Shown here: piece after piece, positions 3,667 to 12,219 of the stretch | Numbering within the stretch: the first letter of the stretch is position 1 | Layout of the letters: each line of letters starts with the position of its first letter | Assembly: GCA_016207165.1 (NCBI GenBank) | Contig: JACQQD010000011.1 | Location: 32,001-96,000, forward strand | DNA length: 64,000 bases | Reading direction: 5' to 3' | From: Candidatus Micrarchaeota archaeon | GTDB lineage: Archaea; Micrarchaeota; Micrarchaeia; Norongarragalinales; Norongarragalinaceae | Notes under the pieces: model-generated | The model's input: the letters and a program-made list of their open reading frames with translations, nothing else | The model's database searches: none | Told to the model about the DNA's origin: nothing | Made by a program: the position numbers and the translations under genes

Positions 3667-4173
3667 CTAGTACACGCTGAGTTTCTTCACGGAGGATAAG
3701 TCCGCCAATTGTTTGAGGACATTCGCCGAAGGCTTTTTGGATAAAAGCAGGAACAACTTGGGGTTCTCAAAGAGTTCGGGGTCCTCCGTCAGAATCTGGC
3801 GGATGGGGACGTGGTGTTCGGCAAGCACGCGCGTGACGTCCGCCACGATTCCGGGCTTGGCGGCGTTGGGCGGCTCGATTTCCAAGACTTGGATCTTGAA
3901 GACCGACGCCGACTTCAAAAAAAGCGGGCCGGCGGGCTGAACGGTTTCAAACACCGGCTTCAAAAAGGCGTCGTCCTGGATTCGGGACACAGTGGCCCGG
4001 ACGACTCTTCGGTCCACGCCGCACGAATCCGCCAAGGACACGTCCTTGACTTGCACGTCGCCGCAATAAACCTTCCCTTGGGAAACGCGAAGACCCAAGC
4101 CCAAGAGTTTCTTGGCCACCCTTTCTTGGGCGGGAAAACCGGCAAAGGAGTCCTTCAAGCGCTGCCAAATCAT
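3667..4173 (-). CDS. trpY: TrpY-like ACT-domain regulator of amino acid metabolism (COG2150 type)
   Basis: MIW start with the only Trp at residue 3, an HTH-like SLADSCGVDRRVV segment, and C-terminal ACT motifs PGIVADV and IRQILTEDPEL. Divergent from trpE. Confidence 0.8.
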   Translation of the reverse strand: MIWQRLKDSFAGFPAQERVAKKLLGLGLRVSQGKVYCGDVQVKDVSLADSCGVDRRVVRATVSRIQDDAFLKPVFETVQPAGPLFLKSASVFKIQVLEIEPPNAAKPGIVADVTRVLAEHHVPIRQILTEDPELFENPKLFLLLSKKPSANVLKQLADLSSVKKLSVY

Positions 4174-4175
4174 GA

Positions 4176-4213
4176 TGTACTTTTTTGTACTACAAAGATA
4201 TAAATAGTGCACT
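4176..4213. promoter_or_regulatory. trpY/trpE control region: two TRP-box-like TGTACT hexamers (4176-81, 4186-91), TATA box TATAAATA (4199-4206), palindrome AGTGCACT (4206-13)
   Basis: Near match to the TGTACA TRP-box consensus known for Methanothermobacter TrpY, located next to the TATA box. Confidence 0.65.
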
Positions 4214-4237
4214 GGGTAAGGATGGAACCGGTTAGAT

Positions 4238-5579
4238 ATGGGAGTCGGTTTTCTTTGGCCACAGCCAAACCAAGTCGCAGTCGCTGGACACGAAACTGGA
4301 TCCGCTGCAGGCCTTTGAGCGCGTCTACGTCAACTCCGAGCATTGCTTCTTATTGGAATCCTTTGAAAAGGACGGAACCCTCGGGAGGTACTCGTTTTTG
4401 GGTTTCAATCCAAAGCACCACATCCGCGTCAAAAACGGCGTCACGCACTTTGACGACGAGGAACGCGACGAAGACCCGTTTTTGTTTTTGAAATCCTTTT
4501 GCATCTCTTCCAAAGCCCAAGGCTTTCGCGGCGGGGCGGTGGGCTACGTGTCGCATGACGCCATCCAGTACATCGAGGACTTCAAGCCAAAAACCGGAAG
4601 CTTTCCAGACTTGGAGTTCGGCGTGTATTTGGACGGCGTGATTTTCGACCACCAAAACCATTCCACCCGCTATGTGTACCACGACGAAAACCGGGTGGAC
4701 GAATTGGAGGCGTTGTTGCGGGAGGAACCCGGCGAACAAAAAACAAGCGTCAAAGTCTCGGAACCGTTTTTCGGAGAGGAAGAGTTCTGCGAGGCCGTGG
4801 GTAAAGCCAAGGAACGCATTGCCGCCGGCGACGCGTTTCAAATCGTTTTATCCAGGAAGTATCCCGTCAAATTCGAGGGCTCGAAAATGCCGTTCTACAA
4901 AGCCCTCCGGAAAACCAACCCGTCGCCGTACCAGTACGTGTTGAAAATGGGGGACCGGGAAATCGTGGGTTCCAGCCCCGAACAGTTGGTCCGCGTGGAG
5001 AACGGCGAGGCGACCACGTTTCCCATCGCCGGCACCCGTCCCAGAGGCAAGACCCCGGAATTGGATGAAGCCCTGGAAAAAGAGTTGGTTTCGGATCCCA
5101 AAGAACAAGCCGAACACGCCATGTTGGTGGATTTGGCGCGCAACGACATCGGCCGGATTTCAAAGGCAGGCACGGTAACCGTCAAGCGATACGCGGAAGT
5201 CAAGAAGTTCAGCCACGTCCAGCACCTCGTCTCGGAAGTCTCTGGAAAACTCAATGGGTCGGCGGTGGACGCGCTTAAATCCGTGTTTCCCGCGGGCACG
5301 CTTTCCGGAGCGCCCAAGCTTTCGGCATTGAAAATCATTGACCAACTGGAGCCCCAGCCGCGGGGGCCCTACGGCGGAGCCGTCGGATTTTTGTCTTTGG
5401 ATGGAGCCTGCGATTTCGCGATTTCCATCCGAACGCTTTTCTGCGACGGCAACCAAGGATTCGTCCAGGCTGGCGCCGGAATCGTCCAGGACTCCGTGGC
5501 CGAAAAAGAATTCTTGGAAACCCAGCACAAGGCGCAAGCGCTCTTGGACTGCTTGAAACAACAAACCGATTTGGCGTGA
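4238..5579 (+). CDS. trpE: Anthranilate synthase component I; N-terminus apparently needs a +1 frameshift near 4253-4258
   Basis: Motifs FLLES, GDAFQIVLS, NPSPY, PIAGTRPRG, EHAMLVDLARND, PAGTLSGAPK. The TrpE-like frame runs upstream of TTG 4353 to a TAG at 4233 with no ATG/GTG/TTG. The confidence applies to identity; the start is inferred. Confidence 0.9.
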
Positions 5580-6154
5580 AGAAAAAAATGAAACTATTGG
5601 TTTTGGATAACTTCGACTCGTTCACCTACAACCTCGTCCAACTCTTCCAAGCGCAAGGGGCGGATTGCCTGGTGTTTAGAAACAACGCATCCATGCACCA
5701 AATCGAGAAACTGCGGCCTGACGCCGTCTTGATTTCGCCGGGACCTGGAACCGTGGAGAACCCCAAGGACTTCGGCGTGTGCGCGCACGTTTTGAAGGCG
5801 CTGGACGTGCCGCAGTTGGGCGTGTGCTTGGGGCACCAGGGCTTGGCCTACGTCTTCGGAGGAAAAATCAGGCGGGACACACCGGTACACGGCAAGACGA
5901 GTTTGGTCACGCACAACGGCAAAGACGTTTTCAAGAACGTCAAGAACCCTTTTCGGGCCGCCCGCTACCACTCGCTGGTCGTGGACGCAAAAACCGTGCC
6001 GGATTGTCTGGAAGTCACGGCGCACGGGCCCAATCAGGAAATCATGGGGCTAAAGCATAAAGAAAAGCCGTTGTTTGGCGTGCAATTCCACCCCGAGTCC
6101 TTCATCACCGAAGACGGAGTAAAAATGGCGAGAAACTTTTTGGACTTGATTTGA
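5576..6154 (+). CDS. trpG: Anthranilate synthase component II (glutamine amidotransferase)
   Basis: DNFDSFTYNL, SPGPG, GVCLGHQ, RYHSL, QFHPES. Start at GTG 5576 or ATG 5588. Confidence 0.95.
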   Translation: MKKKMKLLVLDNFDSFTYNLVQLFQAQGADCLVFRNNASMHQIEKLRPDAVLISPGPGTVENPKDFGVCAHVLKALDVPQLGVCLGHQGLAYVFGGKIRRDTPVHGKTSLVTHNGKDVFKNVKNPFRAARYHSLVVDAKTVPDCLEVTAHGPNQEIMGLKHKEKPLFGVQFHPESFITEDGVKMARNFLDLI

Positions 6155-7147
6155 ATGGATGAATTGATCACCGCATTGGAAACCCGGGAAAACCTTTCCG
6201 AAAACCAATCGGAACAGCTGGCCGACGGGTTCCTGGACAACACGATGAAGCATGAAGACATCAAGCGCGTGCTTTTGGCGTTGAACGCCAAAGGGCCTTG
6301 CGTTGAAGAAGTCGTGGGCTTTGCGAAAAGCATGCGGAAGCATTCCATCAAAATCCACCCTCAACGCCAAGTCGTGGACACGTGCGGCACCGGAGGCGAC
6401 GGCGCCAGTACGTTTAACATTTCGACTACCGCGGCGTTCATTGTCGCGGCCTGCGGCCAGGCCGTTGCCAAACACGGCAACAAAAGCGTTTCAAGCCAAA
6501 GCGGGTCCGCCGACGTCTTGGATGCGCTTGGATTGAACATCCACGTGCCGCCTGAAAAAACGCAGGACATGATTGACGAAACGGATTTTGGCTTCCTCTT
6601 TGCGCCGTTGTACCATCCGGCCATGAAGCACGTGGCGCCGGTGAGAAAAGAGTTGGGCGTGAAAACCATCTTCAATCTATTGGGCCCGCTGACGAACCCA
6701 GCCAGCGCCCAATTTCAAGTCATCGGCGCGTACGATGCCAAAACGCAGGCGTTGCTGGCGGAAGCCGTAAAACGGTTGGGCACGCAACGGACGTTGGTGG
6801 TGAAAGGCGAGAAGCTAGACGAAGCCGGTTTTGGTAAAACCCAGGTCTTGGATGTGACCAAAAAGGGCATTGATGCATTTGAATTGCATTCCGAGGAATT
6901 CGGGCTGAAAGGCGCCGTTGCGGATTTAGTGGTTGAAAACGCCAAGCAAAGCGCCTTGTTTGTCCGCCAGGCGCTGCAGGATGACGGGGTCAAAAGCAGG
7001 GTGGCGGCACTTAACGCCGCGTTGGCGTTGTATGCGGCCGGGAAGGCGGAAACCGTTCAAGAGGGGTTCACCAAAGCCAAAAACGTCTTGAATTCGGGCC
7101 GCGCCATGTTCAAACTCCAGGAAGCCGTGTCGGTGTCCAAGCTATGA
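6155..7147 (+). CDS. trpD: Anthranilate phosphoribosyltransferase
   Basis: DTCGTGGDG, FNIST, KHGNKSVSSQSGSADVL, NLLGPLTNP. Confidence 0.95.
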   Translation: MDELITALETRENLSENQSEQLADGFLDNTMKHEDIKRVLLALNAKGPCVEEVVGFAKSMRKHSIKIHPQRQVVDTCGTGGDGASTFNISTTAAFIVAACGQAVAKHGNKSVSSQSGSADVLDALGLNIHVPPEKTQDMIDETDFGFLFAPLYHPAMKHVAPVRKELGVKTIFNLLGPLTNPASAQFQVIGAYDAKTQALLAEAVKRLGTQRTLVVKGEKLDEAGFGKTQVLDVTKKGIDAFELHSEEFGLKGAVADLVVENAKQSALFVRQALQDDGVKSRVAALNAALALYAAGKAETVQEGFTKAKNVLNSGRAMFKLQEAVSVSKL

Positions 7148-7902
7148 CGTTTTTGGACGACGTGTTGCAAGAAGTTGAAGAAAACGTTTTGACGGGTTAC
7201 TACAAGAAGCGTCCGGGAAAACCCGTGAATGCAGGACAAGTCTCTCTGGAAGGACGGCTTGAATCCTCGTTTACGATCATCGCGGAAATCAAGCCCCAAT
7301 CCCCCACGCACGGAACGCTTTTTGAAGGCGACGCGGCCGAGTTGGCGGAAACCTACAAAAAAAACGGCGCGGGAGCCATTAGCGTGTTGTGCGAGCCGAA
7401 CCGTTTTGGCGGTTCGCTGGAAAACCTCTCCAAAGCCAAGAAAACGGGTTTGCCGGTTCTAGCCAAGGACTTCGTCCTTTCGTTCCATCAATTGGACGCG
7501 TACAAGGCGTTTGGCGCGGACGCCGTGCTTCTGATCCACGAATTGTTTGACGTGAAAAAAACCGAGGGAAGTCTTGACGAATTCATTGCCGCCGCCCACG
7601 AAAAAAAGTTGGAAGTCGTCTTGGAAGTGCATGCCCGGCACGGCTTGGAGGAAGCGGTGCAGACAAAAGCGGACGTGATTGGCATCAACAACCGGGACCT
7701 GTACACCCTGGCGCTAAACCCCTTGCATTACCAAAACGTGTTAGGCGACATTCAACCGGACCGGCCCATCATTGCCGAAAGCGGGTTTAAGTCCAAAGAA
7801 GACCTGGAAATAGCCAAAGCCGTGGGCATCAACGGCGTGCTGGTGGGAACGGCGCTCCTGGAAAGCGGCGACCCCGGCAAATCATTGAGGGAATTGTTGT
7901 GA
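7144..7902 (+). CDS. trpC: Indole-3-glycerol phosphate synthase (not fused to TrpF)
   Basis: [35 protein letters not shown]. Confidence 0.93.
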
Positions 7903-9035
7903 CGTACTTCGGCTCGTTTGGCGGCATGTACGTGCCGGAAACCTTGGTCGCGCCGCTGCAGCGCATCCAGCGCGAGTACGCCAAACGCAAAAACGATTCC
8001 CTGTTTCAAACCAAGTTCCAGCAACTGTTGCGCGAATACGCGGGAAGGCCTTCGCCCCTGTATTTCGCGGAAAAACTGTCGAAAGCCTACGGCTGCAAGA
8101 TTTACCTGAAACGCGAGGACCAGCTTTACACCGGCTCGCACAAAATCAACAACGCCTTGGGCCAAAGCCTGTTTGCCAAATCACTTGGCGCAGAGCGGGT
8201 GATTGCAGAAACTGGGGCGGGACAGCATGGCGTGGCAACAGCCACCGCGTGCGCGCTGTTGGGATTGAAGTGCGTGGTGTACATGGGGTCGGAAGACGTC
8301 AAGCGCCAGTACTTGAACGTTCAACGCATGAAGTTGCTTGGAGCGGAAGTTCGGCCCGTGGATTCGGGGTCCAAGACGCTGAAAGACGCCATCAACGAAG
8401 CGCTTCGCGACTGGGTGGCACAACCGGAAAGCTATTACTTGATTGGTTCCGTCGTTGGGCCGTCGCCTTACCCTGAAATGGTGCGGGACTTTCAACGCGT
8501 GATTGGCGACGAGACCCGAGAACAAGTCATGCAACGCGAGGGAAAGCTTCCCGACGTGTTGGTGGCGTGCGTGGGTGGCGGCTCGAATGCCATGGGCTTG
8601 TTTTATCCGTTCAAAGACGAGCATACCGTCAAGAAAATCGGGGTGGAAGCCTACGGCGCCGCATCGCTTTGCTTTGGAAAAACAGGCGTGCTGCACGGCG
8701 CGAAAACCAAGGTGCTCCAAGACGCCGACGGACAAATCATGGAGACGCACAGCATTTCAGCGGGGTTGGACTACTCGGCCGTAGGCCCCGAACATGCATT
8801 CTTTCAGGAAACCGGGATCGCGGACTACTCGGCGGTCAACGACGAACAGGCACTCGCCGCATTCCGGGAATTATCCATTCAAGAAGGCATCATTCCGGCG
8901 TTGGAATCCGCGCACGCCGTAGCCAAAGGCCTGGATTTGGCGCAGATCCTGGACAAGGACCAAATCATGGTCATCAACTTGAGCGGCCGCGGCGACAAAG
9001 ATACCCATGCCCTTGAAGCGCTTGGACTGAAATGA
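7899..9035 (+). CDS. trpB: Tryptophan synthase beta chain
   Basis: [44 protein letters not shown]. Confidence 0.97.
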
Positions 9036-9093
9036 AACGAAAAAATCGGAAATAGATTGGGCGACGAAAAAAATCAAAAAAAAATAAGAAAAA

Positions 9094-9852
9094 ATGGTTT
9101 TGAAGAAAATGAAGTTCACGCGTCTTTTTGAATCCAAGAAATTCGTCTTTTTGCCCTACGTGTGCTTGGGCTACCCCACCCTTCAAGAAAGCATCCAAAT
9201 CGTGAAAACCCTGGAACCCTTTGCCGACGGGTTCGAACTGGGCATACCGTTCTCCGACCCGGTGGCGGACGGCCCAGTGCTTCAAGCCGCCACGCAAGCC
9301 GCATTGAAAAACGGCTTCCACGTAACAGACGCGTTTCGGGCCATCAGGGAAATCCGTTCGTTCACGCAAAAGCCTCTGGCCGTCATGACGTACCTCAATC
9401 CGGTGCTGGCCTACGGCTTGGAAAAATTCGCTTCCGATGCGCAAAACGCGGGCGCGGATGCCGTCATTGTGCCGGATTCGCCCATGGAGGAAAACGATTC
9501 GCTTCAGGCCGCGTGTTCCGGGAAACTGGAAGTGCCGCTGTTCGTTTCCCCTACCACGCCGGATTCGCGGGCCGCCAAGATTTCGGAAAAAGCGCAAGGC
9601 TTCGTGTACGGCATTGCCGTGAAAGGCGTGACTGGCGCACGAGAAAACGCCGCAAAGGACATGCAGGCGTTAGTCGGCAAAGTCAAAAACAAGCCCGTCG
9701 CCATCGGTTTCGGCATTTCGAAAGCCGAACACGTCCAAGCCGTAAAAAATTCAGGCGCGAGAGGATTCATCGTGGGCAGCCAAATCGTGAAAGCGTACAA
9801 CGAATCCAAACTGGACGGGGTAAAACAATTCGCAAAATCCCTATCGCCATAG
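9094..9852 (+). CDS. trpA: Tryptophan synthase alpha chain
   Basis: ELGIPFSDPVADGP, MTYLNPV, GVTGAR, GFGIS. Start at 9094 or 9109. Confidence 0.95.
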   Translation: MVLKKMKFTRLFESKKFVFLPYVCLGYPTLQESIQIVKTLEPFADGFELGIPFSDPVADGPVLQAATQAALKNGFHVTDAFRAIREIRSFTQKPLAVMTYLNPVLAYGLEKFASDAQNAGADAVIVPDSPMEENDSLQAACSGKLEVPLFVSPTTPDSRAAKISEKAQGFVYGIAVKGVTGARENAAKDMQALVGKVKNKPVAIGFGISKAEHVQAVKNSGARGFIVGSQIVKAYNESKLDGVKQFAKSLSP

Positions 9853-11168: not shown

Positions 11169-11208
11169 TGACGAAGGTAAATAAAAGCAAAGACGCGGTG
11201 AAAAAATC

Positions 11209-12219
11209 GTGATCATTGTTTTCGAGCCTAAGGCCACCGAAGCCCAAGTCCAGCACGTGTTCGAGCGGCTCCAGGAATGGGGTTTCACGCCGGTACTGCA
11301 GGAAGGCGAACAGATTTCCATTGCGATTACCGGCGACTCCTCGGCACTAAGAACCCAAACCCTGGAGGCCTTTGACGGCGTGCAGAAAGCCGTCCGCCTC
11401 AAGGAAGCCTACAAGCTGGTGTCCAAGGAATTCAAGCCCGAAGGCACCGTCATTGAGCTTGGGGACGTGAAAATCGGCGGCAAAAAATTGTTGATGATTG
11501 CCGGGCCCTGCAGCGTGGAAACCGAGGAACAATACGTGTCCACCGCGAGAGCCGTCAAAAAAGCGGGGGCCCAGGTGTTGCGCGCCGGCATCTACAAGCC
11601 AAGAACCTCGCCCTACGACTTTCAAGGCGTGGGGGAACGGGGTTTTCCGTGGCTGAAAAAAGCCAAGGACGAAACCGGACTGCCGCTTTGCGCCGAAGTC
11701 TTGGACGTGGCCTCCATTGCCAAGACCAAGGACCACGTGGACATGTACCAAGTCGGCGCCCGCAACATGCAGAACTACGACCTGCTTAGAGCATTGGGAA
11801 AAGGCGGCAAGCCCGTGCTGCTTAAGCGAGGCTTGTCCGGCACCATCAAGGAACTCTTGTTGGCCGCGGAATACATCATGTCGTCTGGCAACCACGACGT
11901 GATGCTATGCGAGCGAGGCATTCGCACCTACGAAACGGCTACCCGATTCACGTTGGATATCGGAGCCGTTCCCGTGCTGCACCACGACACGCATTTGCCC
12001 GTCATCGTGGACCCGTCGCACCCGGCAGGGAAACGGTCTTTGGTTGGATCCATGGCGAAAGCCGGCGTGGCCGCGGGAGCGGACGGCTTGATCGTGGAAG
12101 TGCACCCCGAACCCGAGAAAGCCTGGTCCGACGCGGCCCAGCAGTTGACGTTCGACCAATTCGAACAGTTAATGGCGGAATTAAAGCCCGTGGCGCAGGC
12201 CGTGGGACGGGAGCTCTGA
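11209..12219 (+). CDS. aroF: DAHP synthase, class I-beta with an N-terminal regulatory domain
   Basis: IAGPCSVE, KPRTSPYDFQG, GARNMQN, LKRG, CERGIRT, DPSH. Confidence 0.95.
   Translation: MIIVFEPKATEAQVQHVFERLQEWGFTPVLQEGEQISIAITGDSSALRTQTLEAFDGVQKAVRLKEAYKLVSKEFKPEGTVIELGDVKIGGKKLLMIAGPCSVETEEQYVSTARAVKKAGAQVLRAGIYKPRTSPYDFQGVGERGFPWLKKAKDETGLPLCAEVLDVASIAKTKDHVDMYQVGARNMQNYDLLRALGKGGKPVLLKRGLSGTIKELLLAAEYIMSSGNHDVMLCERGIRTYETATRFTLDIGAVPVLHHDTHLPVIVDPSHPAGKRSLVGSMAKAGVAAGADGLIVEVHPEPEKAWSDAAQQLTFDQFEQLMAELKPVAQAVGREL

What the first reader, a model, noticed from the sequence alone, without database searches (positions are those of the whole stretch)
4238..4352. Candidate tryptophan-sensing +1 ribosomal frameshift (CUU-UGG) required to make TrpE
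Seen: the TrpE frame reads ...SLDTKLDPLQAFERVYVNSEHCFLLES back to a TAG at 4233, with no ATG/GTG/TTG before 4353, which is already inside the conserved LLES motif. The TATA box at 4199-4206 puts the TSS near 4229, so ATG 4238 is probably the first AUG. It opens a 26-codon ORF, MGVGFLWPQ...GL* (stop 4316-18), whose only Trp codon lies in TTT CTT TGG C (4250-4259). A +1 slip of P-site tRNA-Leu from CUU to UUU enters the TrpE frame (GGC CAC AGC...). Established: bacterial prfB shifts +1 at CUU-UGA when the A site is slow to fill, and hungry codons promote +1 shifts. Inference: low Trp-tRNA stalls the ribosome at UGG and switches anthranilate synthase on, while ample Trp sends it to the early stop. 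That ORF also ends in CTT TGA, a second possible entry point. I know of no described trpE control of this kind.
Basis: partly seen in the sequence, partly recalled or inferred. Interest (0 to 1): 0.9.

Follow-up and report, generated by a model that had tools for sequence, protein, structure and literature searches.

The report
Tryptophan-codon +1 frameshift site in trpE
The first gene of this archaeon's tryptophan pathway has no usable start codon in its own reading frame and seems to be reached only when a ribosome slips one base forward at a tryptophan codon, a layout shared by many other archaea that could let the cell sense tryptophan shortage directly.

Summary
TrpE's frame is open from TAG 4233 but has no ATG/GTG/TTG before 4353. 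ATG 4238 opens a 26-codon ORF whose only Trp codon sits in CTT-TGG-C (4253-4259), one base out of frame with TrpE. Contigs of three sequencing runs show no indel.

The layout is conserved. A start codon in the -1 frame, 4-9 codons, then NTT-TGG and TrpE in +1 occurs in 11 Micrarchaeota genomes, in 92 of 95 Methanobacteriales-type loci and in 25 of 25 thaumarchaeal loci.

A sister clade nested inside the window's genus lacks exactly the skipped T. It encodes Gly-Phe-Leu-Gly in frame, which is the predicted trans-frame junction.

Before TGG, substitutions follow the leader frame; after it, they follow the TrpE frame. TrpE, G, D and C contain no Trp codon in 1,214 codons.

Best reading (about 0.6): a programmed +1 frameshift at a hungry UGG, resembling prfB and Ty1, that raises trp operon translation when Trp-tRNA is scarce. 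Sensing of tryptophan is inferred, not shown.

Main rival: a regulatory leader ORF, with TrpE starting separately at an in-frame codon. Most lineages outside the window have an in-frame GTG or ATG nearby.

I found no prior description in the literature I could search.

The parts
3667..4173 (-). Divergently transcribed TrpY-family regulator gene (168 aa, start ATG 4173-4171).
   Evidence: NCBIfam TrpY_fam gives E 2.3e-46 and 157.8 bits over the full length, which is below the curated cut-off of 180. There is a weak Pfam ACT hit. A homologue lies upstream of trpE in most Micrarchaeota and Methanobacteriales-type loci.
4176..4190 (.). Two TGTAC repeats separated by T5, lying between the trpY start and the TATA box. 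They are candidate TrpY operator boxes.
   Evidence: Read directly from the sequence. Similar TGTAC(A) words sit upstream of the TATA box in relatives. Operator function is inferred from recalled work on Methanothermobacter TrpY; that paper could not be opened.
4199..4206 (+). TATA box (TATAAATA), probably serving both trpY and trpE.
   Evidence: Read. In the in-frame sister clade the TrpE ATG lies 22-24 nt after the same box, which implies a leaderless mRNA. ATG 4238 lies 31 nt after it, and the trpY ATG lies 25 nt to its left. No TSS has been mapped.
4238..4318 (+). 0-frame leader ORF of 26 codons, MGVGFLW...; stop TGA 4316-4318. ATG 4238 is the proposed true start of TrpE.
   Evidence: A homologous -1-frame start codon 4-9 codons before TGG is present in 11 Micrarchaeota genomes, often behind a Shine-Dalgarno sequence. 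The position of the 0-frame stop after TGG varies in relatives: 3-26 codons in the Micrarchaeota and 1-21 in the other clades.
4253..4259 (+). Proposed +1 shift heptamer CTT-TGG-C. Leu-tRNA sits on CUU in the P site, UGG (Trp) is the slow A-site codon, and GGC (Gly) is the first +1-frame codon.
   Evidence: NTT-TGG is invariant at this place in every leader-bearing locus. The sister clade has CTG-GGC or TTG-GGC, which is this site minus the skipped T. Reading CTTT as one step gives MGVGFLGHSQTK....
4257..5579 (+). TrpE (anthranilate synthase component I) in the +1 frame, 440 codons, with no Trp codon.
   Evidence: TIGR01820 TrpE-arch gives E 2.4e-141 (472 bits, below the curated cut-off of 512), and Pfam Chorismate_bind and Anth_synt_I_N also match. 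Identity to same-genus TrpE is 70-71% from residue 3-5 of the open frame onward.
5576..9849 (+). The rest of the operon: trpG 5576-6154, trpD 6155-7147, trpC 7144-7902, trpB 7899-9035 and trpA 9094-9849. The junctions from trpE to trpB overlap or abut, so translational coupling is likely.
   Evidence: Gene coordinates are and NCBIfam hits. TrpG, TrpD and TrpC have 0 Trp codons, TrpB has 1, and the open frame that holds trpA has 0.

Best explanation
Ribosomes start at ATG 4238, on a leaderless or very short-leader mRNA made from the TATA box at 4199-4206, and read MGVGFL. With Leu-tRNA on CUU (4253-4255) in the P site, the A site shows UGG, which is the only Trp codon in the first 1,214 codons of the operon.

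If charged Trp-tRNA arrives quickly, the ribosome stays in frame and stops after 26 codons, so no TrpE is made. If Trp-tRNA is scarce, the pause lets the peptidyl-tRNA re-pair one base forward on UUU. GGC, read by an abundant Gly-tRNA, then enters the A site and translation continues into TrpE as MGVGFL|GHSQTK.... The overlapping or abutting gene junctions should carry translation on into trpG, trpD, trpC and trpB.

This would add a sensor of Trp-tRNA charging to the transcriptional control by the neighbouring TrpY-family regulator.

Shown here: the anatomy, the absence of any canonical in-frame start, the conservation of the arrangement, the frame switch in substitution patterns, and the natural in-frame fusion at the predicted junction. 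Inferred: that slipping occurs, that its rate depends on Trp-tRNA, and that downstream genes are coupled.
For: 1. TrpE has no in-frame ATG/GTG/TTG between TAG 4233 and 4353, yet its frame is conserved at the protein level from about residue 3 onward in same-genus relatives.

2. Contigs of 3 runs show no indel.

3. The same layout occurs in 11 Micrarchaeota genomes of 3 families (G000, G002, G009, G030, G042, G239, G257, G233, G328, G293, G180). A start codon in the -1 frame is followed by NTT-TGG. A Shine-Dalgarno sequence precedes it in several: GGTGAT-N4-GTG in G042, AGGTGA-N4-ATG in G233 and G328, AGGTG-N6-TTG in G180. G000, G009 and G042 have no canonical in-frame start at all. G180 and G002 have one only downstream of the site. 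G233, G328 and G030 have only a GTG lying inside the Shine-Dalgarno sequence.

4. The in-frame clade (L003, L014, L015, L016) encodes Asp-Ser-Gly-Phe-Leu-Gly with synonymous variation (GGG/GGC, TTC/TTT, CTG/TTG, then GGC). This is the leader-frame Gly-Phe-Leu of G000 and G002 joined to the +1-frame Gly, with exactly one T missing. The clade is nested as (G000,(G002,(in-frame clade))) with SH-aLRT support of 99-100, so it is derived.

5. The selected frame switches at TGG. In 84 distinct Methanobacteriales-type leaders, the TrpE-frame third positions at -9, -6, -3 and 0 never vary, whereas +3, +6 and +9 do. The variable leader sites -7 and -4 are third positions of the leader frame. In 21 distinct thaumarchaeal leaders, the two most polymorphic sites (-7: A/C 11/10; -4: C/T 15/6) are synonymous in the leader frame and non-synonymous in the TrpE frame.

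6. The Phe codon that supplies the skipped T is TTT in 11 of 11 Micrarchaeota leaders, although two of these genes use TTT for only 17-18% of Phe codons. The product of expected fractions is 4e-4, but the lineages are not independent.

7. TrpE, G, D and C have 0 Trp codons in 1,214 codons, against about 12 per 1,000 in a crude ORF set.

8. GGC is the commonest Gly codon, and a tRNA-Gly(GCC) is present.

9. The heptamer differs by one base from Ty1's CUU_AGG_C, which alone gives about 40% +1 shifting (passage in PMC5009743), and from the prfB CUU-UGA site named in the finding.
Against: There are no RNA, ribosome or peptide data; no RNA run holds this DNA.

TT-TGG in the -1 frame is an automatic by-product of Phe-Gly encoded as TTT GGN.

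Most lineages outside the window keep an in-frame start close to the site. This is a GTG in all 92 Methanobacteriales-type leaders and in the thaumarchaeal ones, an ATG in G257 and G293, and ATG ATG in G239. Separate initiation is therefore possible in those lineages.

Among 120 database TrpE proteins close to a Methanobacteriaceae MAG's TrpE (locus L116), none is a fusion at the shift site. Those with an upstream ATG run in the TrpE frame: MKAVNVFG, MAVNVFG, MVKKCKAVNVFG.

The TrpE family model begins only at residue 23 of the open frame, and 18 Micrarchaeota relatives start 27 codons before LLES. A start at CTG 4284 would therefore still give a complete enzyme core.

CTT-TGG is not avoided in a crude ORF set of this genome: 138 observed against 87 expected.

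The Shine-Dalgarno-like element 5' of the site is weak in G000 itself. G000 has no 16S gene to check it against, and no tRNA-Leu that reads CUU was found in this 90%-complete MAG.

No stimulatory RNA structure was found (z +0.46).

G009's trpE is split further downstream, and that MAG is 71% complete.
Confidence: 0.6

Rival explanations
1. The short ORF is a separate regulatory leader peptide with a Trp codon, and it overlaps the start of trpE. TrpE itself is initiated independently in its own frame. In most lineages that would be at the GTG or ATG a few codons before Phe-Gly. In this window it would be at a non-canonical codon such as GTT 4248, ATA 4236 or CTG 4284. Ribosome traffic or stalling on the leader would then modulate that initiation.
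For: An in-frame GTG is present in 92 of 92 Methanobacteriales-type leaders and in the thaumarchaeal ones. An in-frame ATG stands at the equivalent codon in G257 and G293.

Database proteins with longer N-termini extend in the TrpE frame, not across the junction.

The substitution pattern shows only that the leader frame is translated, which this model also predicts.

Leaderless short ORFs rich in Cys codons act as Cys-responsive attenuators in mycobacteria (abstract of bioRxiv 10.1101/834739, listed).

The TrpE core begins at residue 23, so a late start is tolerable.
Against: G000, G009 and G042 have no canonical in-frame start, and no near-cognate codon is conserved at a fixed position.

The in-frame GTG lies about 15 nt from the Shine-Dalgarno sequence that sits 4-6 nt before the out-of-frame ATG.

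A ribosome stalled at UGG would cover that GTG and the ATG, so starvation would lower TrpE output, which is the wrong direction for a biosynthetic operon (inference).

The in-frame clade joins the leader to TrpE exactly at the predicted junction and keeps Gly-Phe-Leu-Gly under amino-acid selection.

No alternative hairpins were found, and there is no Rfam match.
Confidence: 0.25
2. trpE in this genome has simply lost its start codon, making it a decaying or silent gene in a reduced DPANN genome. Alternatively, the sequence carries a shared one-base error, and the resemblance to a shift site is incidental.
For: Only 7 of 41 close relatives and 49 of 401 genomes of the phylum have a TrpE match at all, so the pathway is often lost in this group. 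G009's copy is split downstream. All the evidence comes from MAGs.
Against: The 447-codon frame is intact and scores as TrpE at E 2e-141, and the whole trpEGDCBA set and trpY are intact.

The same out-of-frame layout recurs in 11 genomes from different assemblies and in two other phyla.

Contigs of three runs agree.

The leader is far more conserved than its flanks.
Confidence: 0.06
3. The frame is corrected at the RNA level, by transcriptional slippage or editing at the T-rich stretch, or by a tRNA that reads four bases, rather than by slippage of a normal peptidyl-tRNA.
For: The site is T-rich: TTTTCTTT here and TGTTTTT in Methanobacteriales.
Against: The T runs are only 3-5 long, and G009 has TTTACTTT. 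Known transcriptional slippage needs longer homopolymers (recalled). No tRNA with a four-base anticodon was reported among the 22-35 tRNAs found.
Confidence: 0.04

Closest known systems
Bacterial prfB (release factor 2) autoregulatory +1 frameshift
   Same: A short 0-frame ORF at the very start of the gene is followed by the main protein in +1. The P-site codon is CUU, re-pairing on UUU. The A-site codon's decoding rate reports the quantity being regulated. Some lineages carry the same protein in frame without the shift. A G-rich Shine-Dalgarno-like word lies 4 nt 5' of the P-site codon in relatives: GGCGG, GAGGG, AGGGA, (A/G)GTGA.
   Different: The A-site codon is a sense codon (UGG), not the stop UGA. 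The sensed molecule would be Trp-tRNA, not the gene's own product. The host is an archaeon. The Shine-Dalgarno-like word is weak in the window itself. Nothing has been tested experimentally. Details of prfB are recalled, apart from what the finding states.
Yeast Ty1 / ABP140 +1 frameshift (CUU_AGG_C)
   Same: A seven-base site works through a slow sense codon in the A site, a Leu-tRNA slipping from CUU, and GGC as the first +1 codon (passage in PMC5009743). The window's CTT-TGG-C differs by one base.
   Different: In Ty1 the slow codon is slow because its tRNA is always rare. Here the slowness would depend on amino-acid supply. Ty1 is a eukaryotic retroelement, not a biosynthetic operon.
Ribosome-mediated attenuation by trp leader peptides (bacterial trpL)
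   Same: A short peptide-coding ORF at the 5' end of a trp operon has a Trp codon that lets a translating ribosome report Trp-tRNA charging. The operon's enzymes are themselves poor in Trp.
   Different: There are no alternative hairpins or terminator and no Rfam leader match. There is a single Trp codon, not tandem ones. The leader overlaps and would be fused to the enzyme. The output would be a change of reading frame, not transcription read-through.
TrpY-controlled trpEGCFBAD operon of Methanothermobacter
   Same: A divergent TrpY-family gene lies next to trpE. TGTAC words sit between the two starts. TrpE is about 50% identical to Methanobacteriaceae TrpE. The description of TrpY comes from passages of PMC6737238.
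   Different: That system is described as purely transcriptional. The leader and Trp-codon arrangement reported here is present in those methanogen-type loci too, but it is not mentioned in the passages I could read. The original paper (PMC1236654) could not be opened.

Membership tests
Programmed +1 ribosomal frameshift site (prfB / Ty1 type) | A short 0-frame ORF with a credible initiation site, with the main ORF in +1 lacking its own start. | tested here: met
   ATG 4238 is the first ATG after the TATA box. There is no in-frame ATG/GTG/TTG before 4353. Relatives have a Shine-Dalgarno sequence plus a start codon in the leader frame.
Programmed +1 ribosomal frameshift site (prfB / Ty1 type) | A P-site codon whose tRNA can re-pair in the +1 frame. 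| tested here: met
   CUU shifts to UUU here. Relatives have CUU, UUU or AUU, always followed by U. AUU, in most thaumarchaeal loci, re-pairs at only two of three positions.
Programmed +1 ribosomal frameshift site (prfB / Ty1 type) | A slow-to-decode A-site codon. | not testable with these tools
   UGG is invariant at the site and is the only Trp codon in 1,214 codons. Whether it is decoded slowly under Trp shortage needs an experiment.
Programmed +1 ribosomal frameshift site (prfB / Ty1 type) | The site is conserved among relatives, and some lineages encode the same protein in frame. | tested here: met
   Eleven Micrarchaeota genomes carry the site. The nested in-frame clade encodes GFLG with the skipped T absent. 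No such fusion was found among 120 Methanobacterium-type proteins.
Programmed +1 ribosomal frameshift site (prfB / Ty1 type) | A 5' Shine-Dalgarno-like stimulator at short spacing (prfB subtype). | tested here: inconclusive
   G-rich pentamers lie at -12..-8 in relatives. The 16S 3' end of G002 and G030 is ...GATCACCTCC. The window has only GTCGG there, with GGGAG further 5', and G000 lacks a 16S gene.
Programmed +1 ribosomal frameshift site (prfB / Ty1 type) | A trans-frame protein product is demonstrated. | not testable with these tools
   No RNA or proteome data exist for this organism.
Leader-peptide transcription attenuator (trpL type) | Alternative terminator and antiterminator hairpins after a leader with tandem regulatory codons. 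| tested here: not met
   The fold of 4229-4340 is no better than shuffles (z +0.46). There is no Rfam hit at E<=1. There is a single Trp codon, and the leader overlaps trpE.
Anthranilate synthase component I (TrpE) | Match to the TrpE and chorismate-binding family models over the full length. | tested here: met
   TIGR01820 gives E 2.4e-141 over residues 23-440 (472 bits, below the curated cut-off of 512). PF00425 gives 1.2e-90 and PF04715 gives 1.8e-26, both above their cut-offs.
TrpY family transcription regulator | Full-length match to the family model, in a divergent position next to trpE. | tested here: inconclusive
   NF053754 gives E 2.3e-46 covering positions 1-163 of 163, but 157.8 bits is below the curated cut-off of 180. 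The divergent position is met. DNA binding was not tested.

The most novel reading that the evidence does not exclude
The site in this window is one instance of an ancient device spanning several archaeal phyla. A start codon one base out of frame is followed by 4-9 codons, a G-rich word, NUU-UGG, and then TrpE in +1. This device would let ribosomes of Micrarchaeota, Methanobacteriales (including cultured methanogens) and ammonia-oxidising Thaumarchaeota sense Trp-tRNA charging by frameshifting at a hungry codon. It would be the archaeal counterpart of bacterial attenuation and the first natural use of hungry-codon frameshifting to switch on a starvation-specific protein. On this reading the GTG now annotated as the trpE start in those groups would be part of the shift signal, not the start.
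Probability: 0.4. Interest if true: 0.95.

Novelty: new variant of a known kind. Interest (0 to 1): 0.88.

Why it matters
Regulatory +1 frameshifting is known for release factor 2, antizyme and Ty elements. The large 2016 review of the field states that no natural example is known of hungry-codon frameshifting that makes a trans-frame protein for starvation conditions (passage in PMC5009743). The 2021 review of archaeal recoding lists a single proven archaeal frameshift and never mentions tryptophan (term search of PMC8211752).

If this reading is true, it would give archaea a direct sensor of tRNA charging, something so far attributed only to bacteria through attenuation and T-boxes. It would explain how trp operons under TrpY control could also respond to uncharged tRNA. 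It would correct the annotated start of trpE in hundreds of genomes.

The idea is immediately testable in cultured methanogens and Nitrosopumilus, by searching existing proteomes for the junction peptide.

Tried and rejected
Assembly error was rejected, because the contigs of 3 runs agree and relatives share the layout.

No RNA holder was listed for this DNA, so expression, TSS and editing could not be examined.

A start at ATG 4222 (third frame) was rejected, because it lies only 15 nt after the TATA box.

The second entry point at CTT-TGA 4313-4318 is not conserved.

A downstream stimulatory RNA structure was not found, and there was no Rfam family match.

I looked for genome-wide avoidance of CTT-TGG and did not see it: 138 observed against 87 expected. 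That ORF set is crude (1,547 ORFs of 150 aa or more, including overlapping spurious ones), so this is weak evidence either way.

The anti-Shine-Dalgarno check for G000 failed because the MAG has no 16S gene. I used G002 and G030 instead. The stretch taken for G001 (L240) did not read as a 16S 3' end and was ignored.

The tRNA search found 22 tRNAs, or 35 with intron search, many of those doubtful. No tRNA-Leu for CUU was found.

The search for shift-site fusions in the protein database found none among 120 proteins.

L087 looked like a further case without an in-frame start, but it has a stop just after the site in the TrpE frame, so it was a false anchor and was dropped. The L186 'ATG TGG' hit was a false positive.

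Literature searches and term look-ups in PMC5009743, PMC3711429, PMC8211752 and PMC1854888 found no description of a trpE frameshift or archaeal trp leader. Subscription papers, supplements and the original TrpY paper were not visible. No structure or complex prediction was run.
Full report
WHAT IS THERE. The window comes from a 1.27-Mb, 12-contig, 90%-complete MAG. Its nearest relatives carry record titles naming Candidatus Micrarchaeota from groundwater.

At 4236-5579 lies a 447-codon open frame that scores as anthranilate synthase component I. TIGR01820 gives E 2.4e-141, below its curated cut-off, and PF00425 and PF04715 score above theirs. It is followed by trpG, trpD, trpC and trpB with overlapping or abutting junctions, and then by trpA. 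Upstream, on the other strand, a TrpY-family regulator gene starts at 4173. Two TGTAC words (4176-4190) and a TATAAATA box (4199-4206) lie between the two genes.

- The TrpE frame opens after TAG 4233 and has no ATG, GTG or TTG until TTG 4353, which lies inside the conserved LLES motif.
- ATG 4238, one base out of frame, opens a 26-codon ORF whose only Trp codon is TGG 4256-4258, within CTT-TGG-C.
- Reading CTTT as a single step gives MGVGFLGHSQTK... and continues into TrpE. That translation is valid to residue 354, where the same four letters recur in frame.

IS IT REAL? Logan contigs of three runs from one groundwater study cover the site without any inserted or missing base. One run may be the source of the MAG; the other two are at depth 8 and 7. 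These are contigs, not raw reads.

More tellingly, independently assembled relatives share the out-of-frame arrangement. Within the order, five genomes have a start codon in the -1 frame followed by GGT-NNN-YTT-TGG-CC:
- G002, same genus;
- G009, same family; this is a 71%-complete MAG whose trpE is also split further downstream;
- G030 and G042, another family;
- G000 itself.

A sample of 401 genomes of the phylum gave 49 with a TrpE match. Of 24 newly fetched loci, 6 carry the arrangement (L174, L176, L178, L179, L181, L194; A(A/G)GGAT-NNN-CTT-TGG). The other 18 have a plain ATG 27 codons before LLES.

In all, 11 genomes of 3 families carry the arrangement.
- G000, G009 and G042 have no canonical in-frame start at all.
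- G180 and G002 have one only downstream of the site.
- G233, G328 and G030 have only a GTG that lies inside the Shine-Dalgarno sequence serving the out-of-frame start.
- G239, G257 and G293 do have an in-frame ATG close by.

THE NATURAL FUSION. G001 and three metagenome loci (L014-L016) have an ordinary in-frame ATG placed 22-24 nt after the TATA box. They read ...Asp-Ser-Gly-Phe-Leu-Gly..., encoded as GGG/GGC TTC/TTT CTG/TTG GGC.

This is the leader-frame Gly-Phe-Leu of G000 and G002 (GGT TTT CTT) joined to the +1-frame Gly (GGC), with exactly the skipped T missing and with synonymous changes at all three third positions. On a TrpE tree of 63 rows the clade is nested as (G000,(G002,(in-frame clade))) with SH-aLRT support of 99-100.

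That tree was a quick search with no mixture model. Rows left out were paralogues, fragments, duplicates, G009, L118, L145 and L172, and all but the first 22 methanogen-type and 8 thaumarchaeal rows. Because outgroups also carry the leader, the in-frame state is most simply a derived hard-wiring of the frameshift product. This is the strongest argument that the leader and TrpE are parts of one protein.

THE SAME LAYOUT IN OTHER ARCHAEA. TrpE's closest relatives outside the phylum (about 50% identity) are of Methanobacteriaceae type.

I defined a group by origin only: 75 genome-contig loci plus 20 loci from the order of G420. In it, 92 of 95 have an ATG in the -1 frame exactly 7 codons before a TGG, usually 4-6 nt after AGGTGA. 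The exceptions are L118 (broken frames), L126 (one base missing, so its ATG is in frame) and L145 (contig edge). A second, more distant TrpE type in that order has a plain ATG and no leader in 19 of 19 loci; a further stretch gave no hit.

Twenty-five thaumarchaeal metagenome loci, defined by a TrpE core motif, all have ATG-(4 or 5 codons)-ATT/CTT-TGG. TrpY is adjacent in most Micrarchaeota and methanogen-type loci, but in none of the 29 thaumarchaeal metagenome loci.

WHICH FRAME IS READ? In the 84 distinct methanogen-type leaders, GTGA at -11..-8, T at -6 and TTTTGG at -3..+2 never vary. The third positions of the TrpE frame before the site (-9, -6, -3, 0) are invariant, while those after it (+3, +6, +9) vary freely. 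The variable leader sites -7 and -4 are third positions of the leader frame.

In the 21 distinct thaumarchaeal leaders, the two most polymorphic sites are synonymous in the leader frame (GGA/GGC, CAC/CAT) and non-synonymous in the TrpE frame. Selection thus acts on the leader frame up to TGG and on the TrpE frame after it. The leader as a whole is much more conserved than the coding sequence on either side. This rules out an untranslated leader. It does not by itself separate frameshifting from a free-standing leader peptide.

WHY A TRYPTOPHAN SENSOR IS PLAUSIBLE. UGG is the A-site codon at every site. TrpE, TrpG, TrpD and TrpC contain no Trp codon in 1,214 codons and TrpB has one, against roughly 12 per 1,000 in a crude ORF set. 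Avoidance of Trp in trp enzymes is a known pattern (passage in PMC1854888).

The first +1 codon, GGC, is the commonest Gly codon, and a matching tRNA is present. The Phe codon that supplies the skipped T is TTT in 11 of 11 Micrarchaeota leaders, even where TTC dominates elsewhere in the gene.

A G-rich, Shine-Dalgarno-like pentamer lies 4 nt before the P-site codon in all three groups, and the 16S 3' end of two relatives is ...GATCACCTCC. In the window itself this element is weak.

WHAT SPEAKS AGAINST IT.
- There are no expression data.
- TT-TGG is an automatic consequence of Phe-Gly encoded as TTT GGN.
- Outside the window most lineages keep an in-frame GTG or ATG next to the site.
- None of 120 database proteins is fused across the junction, and those with longer N-termini extend in the TrpE frame.
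- The TrpE family model starts at residue 23, so a non-canonical start such as CTG 4284 would still give a whole enzyme. However, that codon is CTT in G009.
- CTT-TGG is not avoided genome-wide.
- No RNA structure or Rfam family was found.

VERDICT. The best explanation for this window is a programmed +1 frameshift at CUU-UGG that is needed to make TrpE (about 0.6). Dependence on Trp-tRNA is a well-motivated but untested inference.

The main rival (about 0.25) is an overlapping regulatory leader ORF with separate in-frame initiation. That model fits methanogens and Thaumarchaeota better than it fits the window. A dead gene or a sequence error is unlikely (about 0.06).

I found no prior description (searches; reviews checked). 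The original TrpY paper, subscription journals and supplements were not visible to me.

Noticed in passing
L096-L173 and L198-L217 (Methanobacteriales-type trpE loci): The annotated GTG start of trpE (giving N-termini MNVFG or VNVFG) lies about 15 nt from the Shine-Dalgarno sequence. An out-of-frame ATG sits 4-6 nt after that sequence and exactly 7 codons before an invariant TTT-TGG. This holds in 92 of 95 loci, so the trpE start in these methanogens may be mis-annotated.
   Followed up: partly
L062-L093 (thaumarchaeal metagenome contigs): All 25 loci tested have ATGGGTG-type starts, in which an ATG (leader frame) and a GTG (TrpE frame) overlap, followed by ATT/CTT-TGG. Polymorphisms are synonymous in the leader frame only. 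No TrpY homologue lies nearby.
   Followed up: partly
window 4171-4240: A single TATA box lies 25 nt from the trpY ATG on the minus strand and 31 nt from ATG 4238 on the plus strand. It looks like a shared bidirectional promoter with two TGTAC words on the trpY side. In the in-frame sister clade both genes would be leaderless.
   Followed up: no
window 4257-9849: The trp enzymes are almost free of tryptophan: 0 Trp codons in TrpE, G, D and C and in the open frame that holds trpA, and 1 in TrpB.
   Followed up: yes
G009:C42:13024-14237 (L006, L011): This relative's trpE matches in two pieces in different frames (query residues 2-275 and 310-443). This is either a broken gene or an assembly error in a 71%-complete MAG.
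   Followed up: no
G000:C9:87001-88098 (L008): There is a second chorismate-utilising paralogue in the same genome. It is 42% identical over residues 90-441, lies in a 592-codon open frame, and is also present in G001 and G002. It may be a PabB-like or second TrpE-like enzyme.
   Followed up: no
L218-L237 (second TrpE type in the order of G420): A more distant TrpE type of about 500 aa, with N-terminus MFSPSLEEVK..., has a plain in-frame ATG and no leader in 19 of 19 loci. The leader therefore travels with one TrpE lineage, not with the host group.
   Followed up: partly
window 11185-12216: A DAHP synthase gene (first step of aromatic amino-acid synthesis; NF006421, E 2e-143) lies about 1.3 kb downstream of trpA on the same strand.
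   Followed up: no
L002 / L094 (G002), about 130 nt between the TATA box and the leader ATG: G002 has an A-rich insertion of about 110 nt between the conserved TATA box and its leader ATG. Its trpE mRNA would therefore have a long 5' leader, unlike G000 and G001.
   Followed up: no
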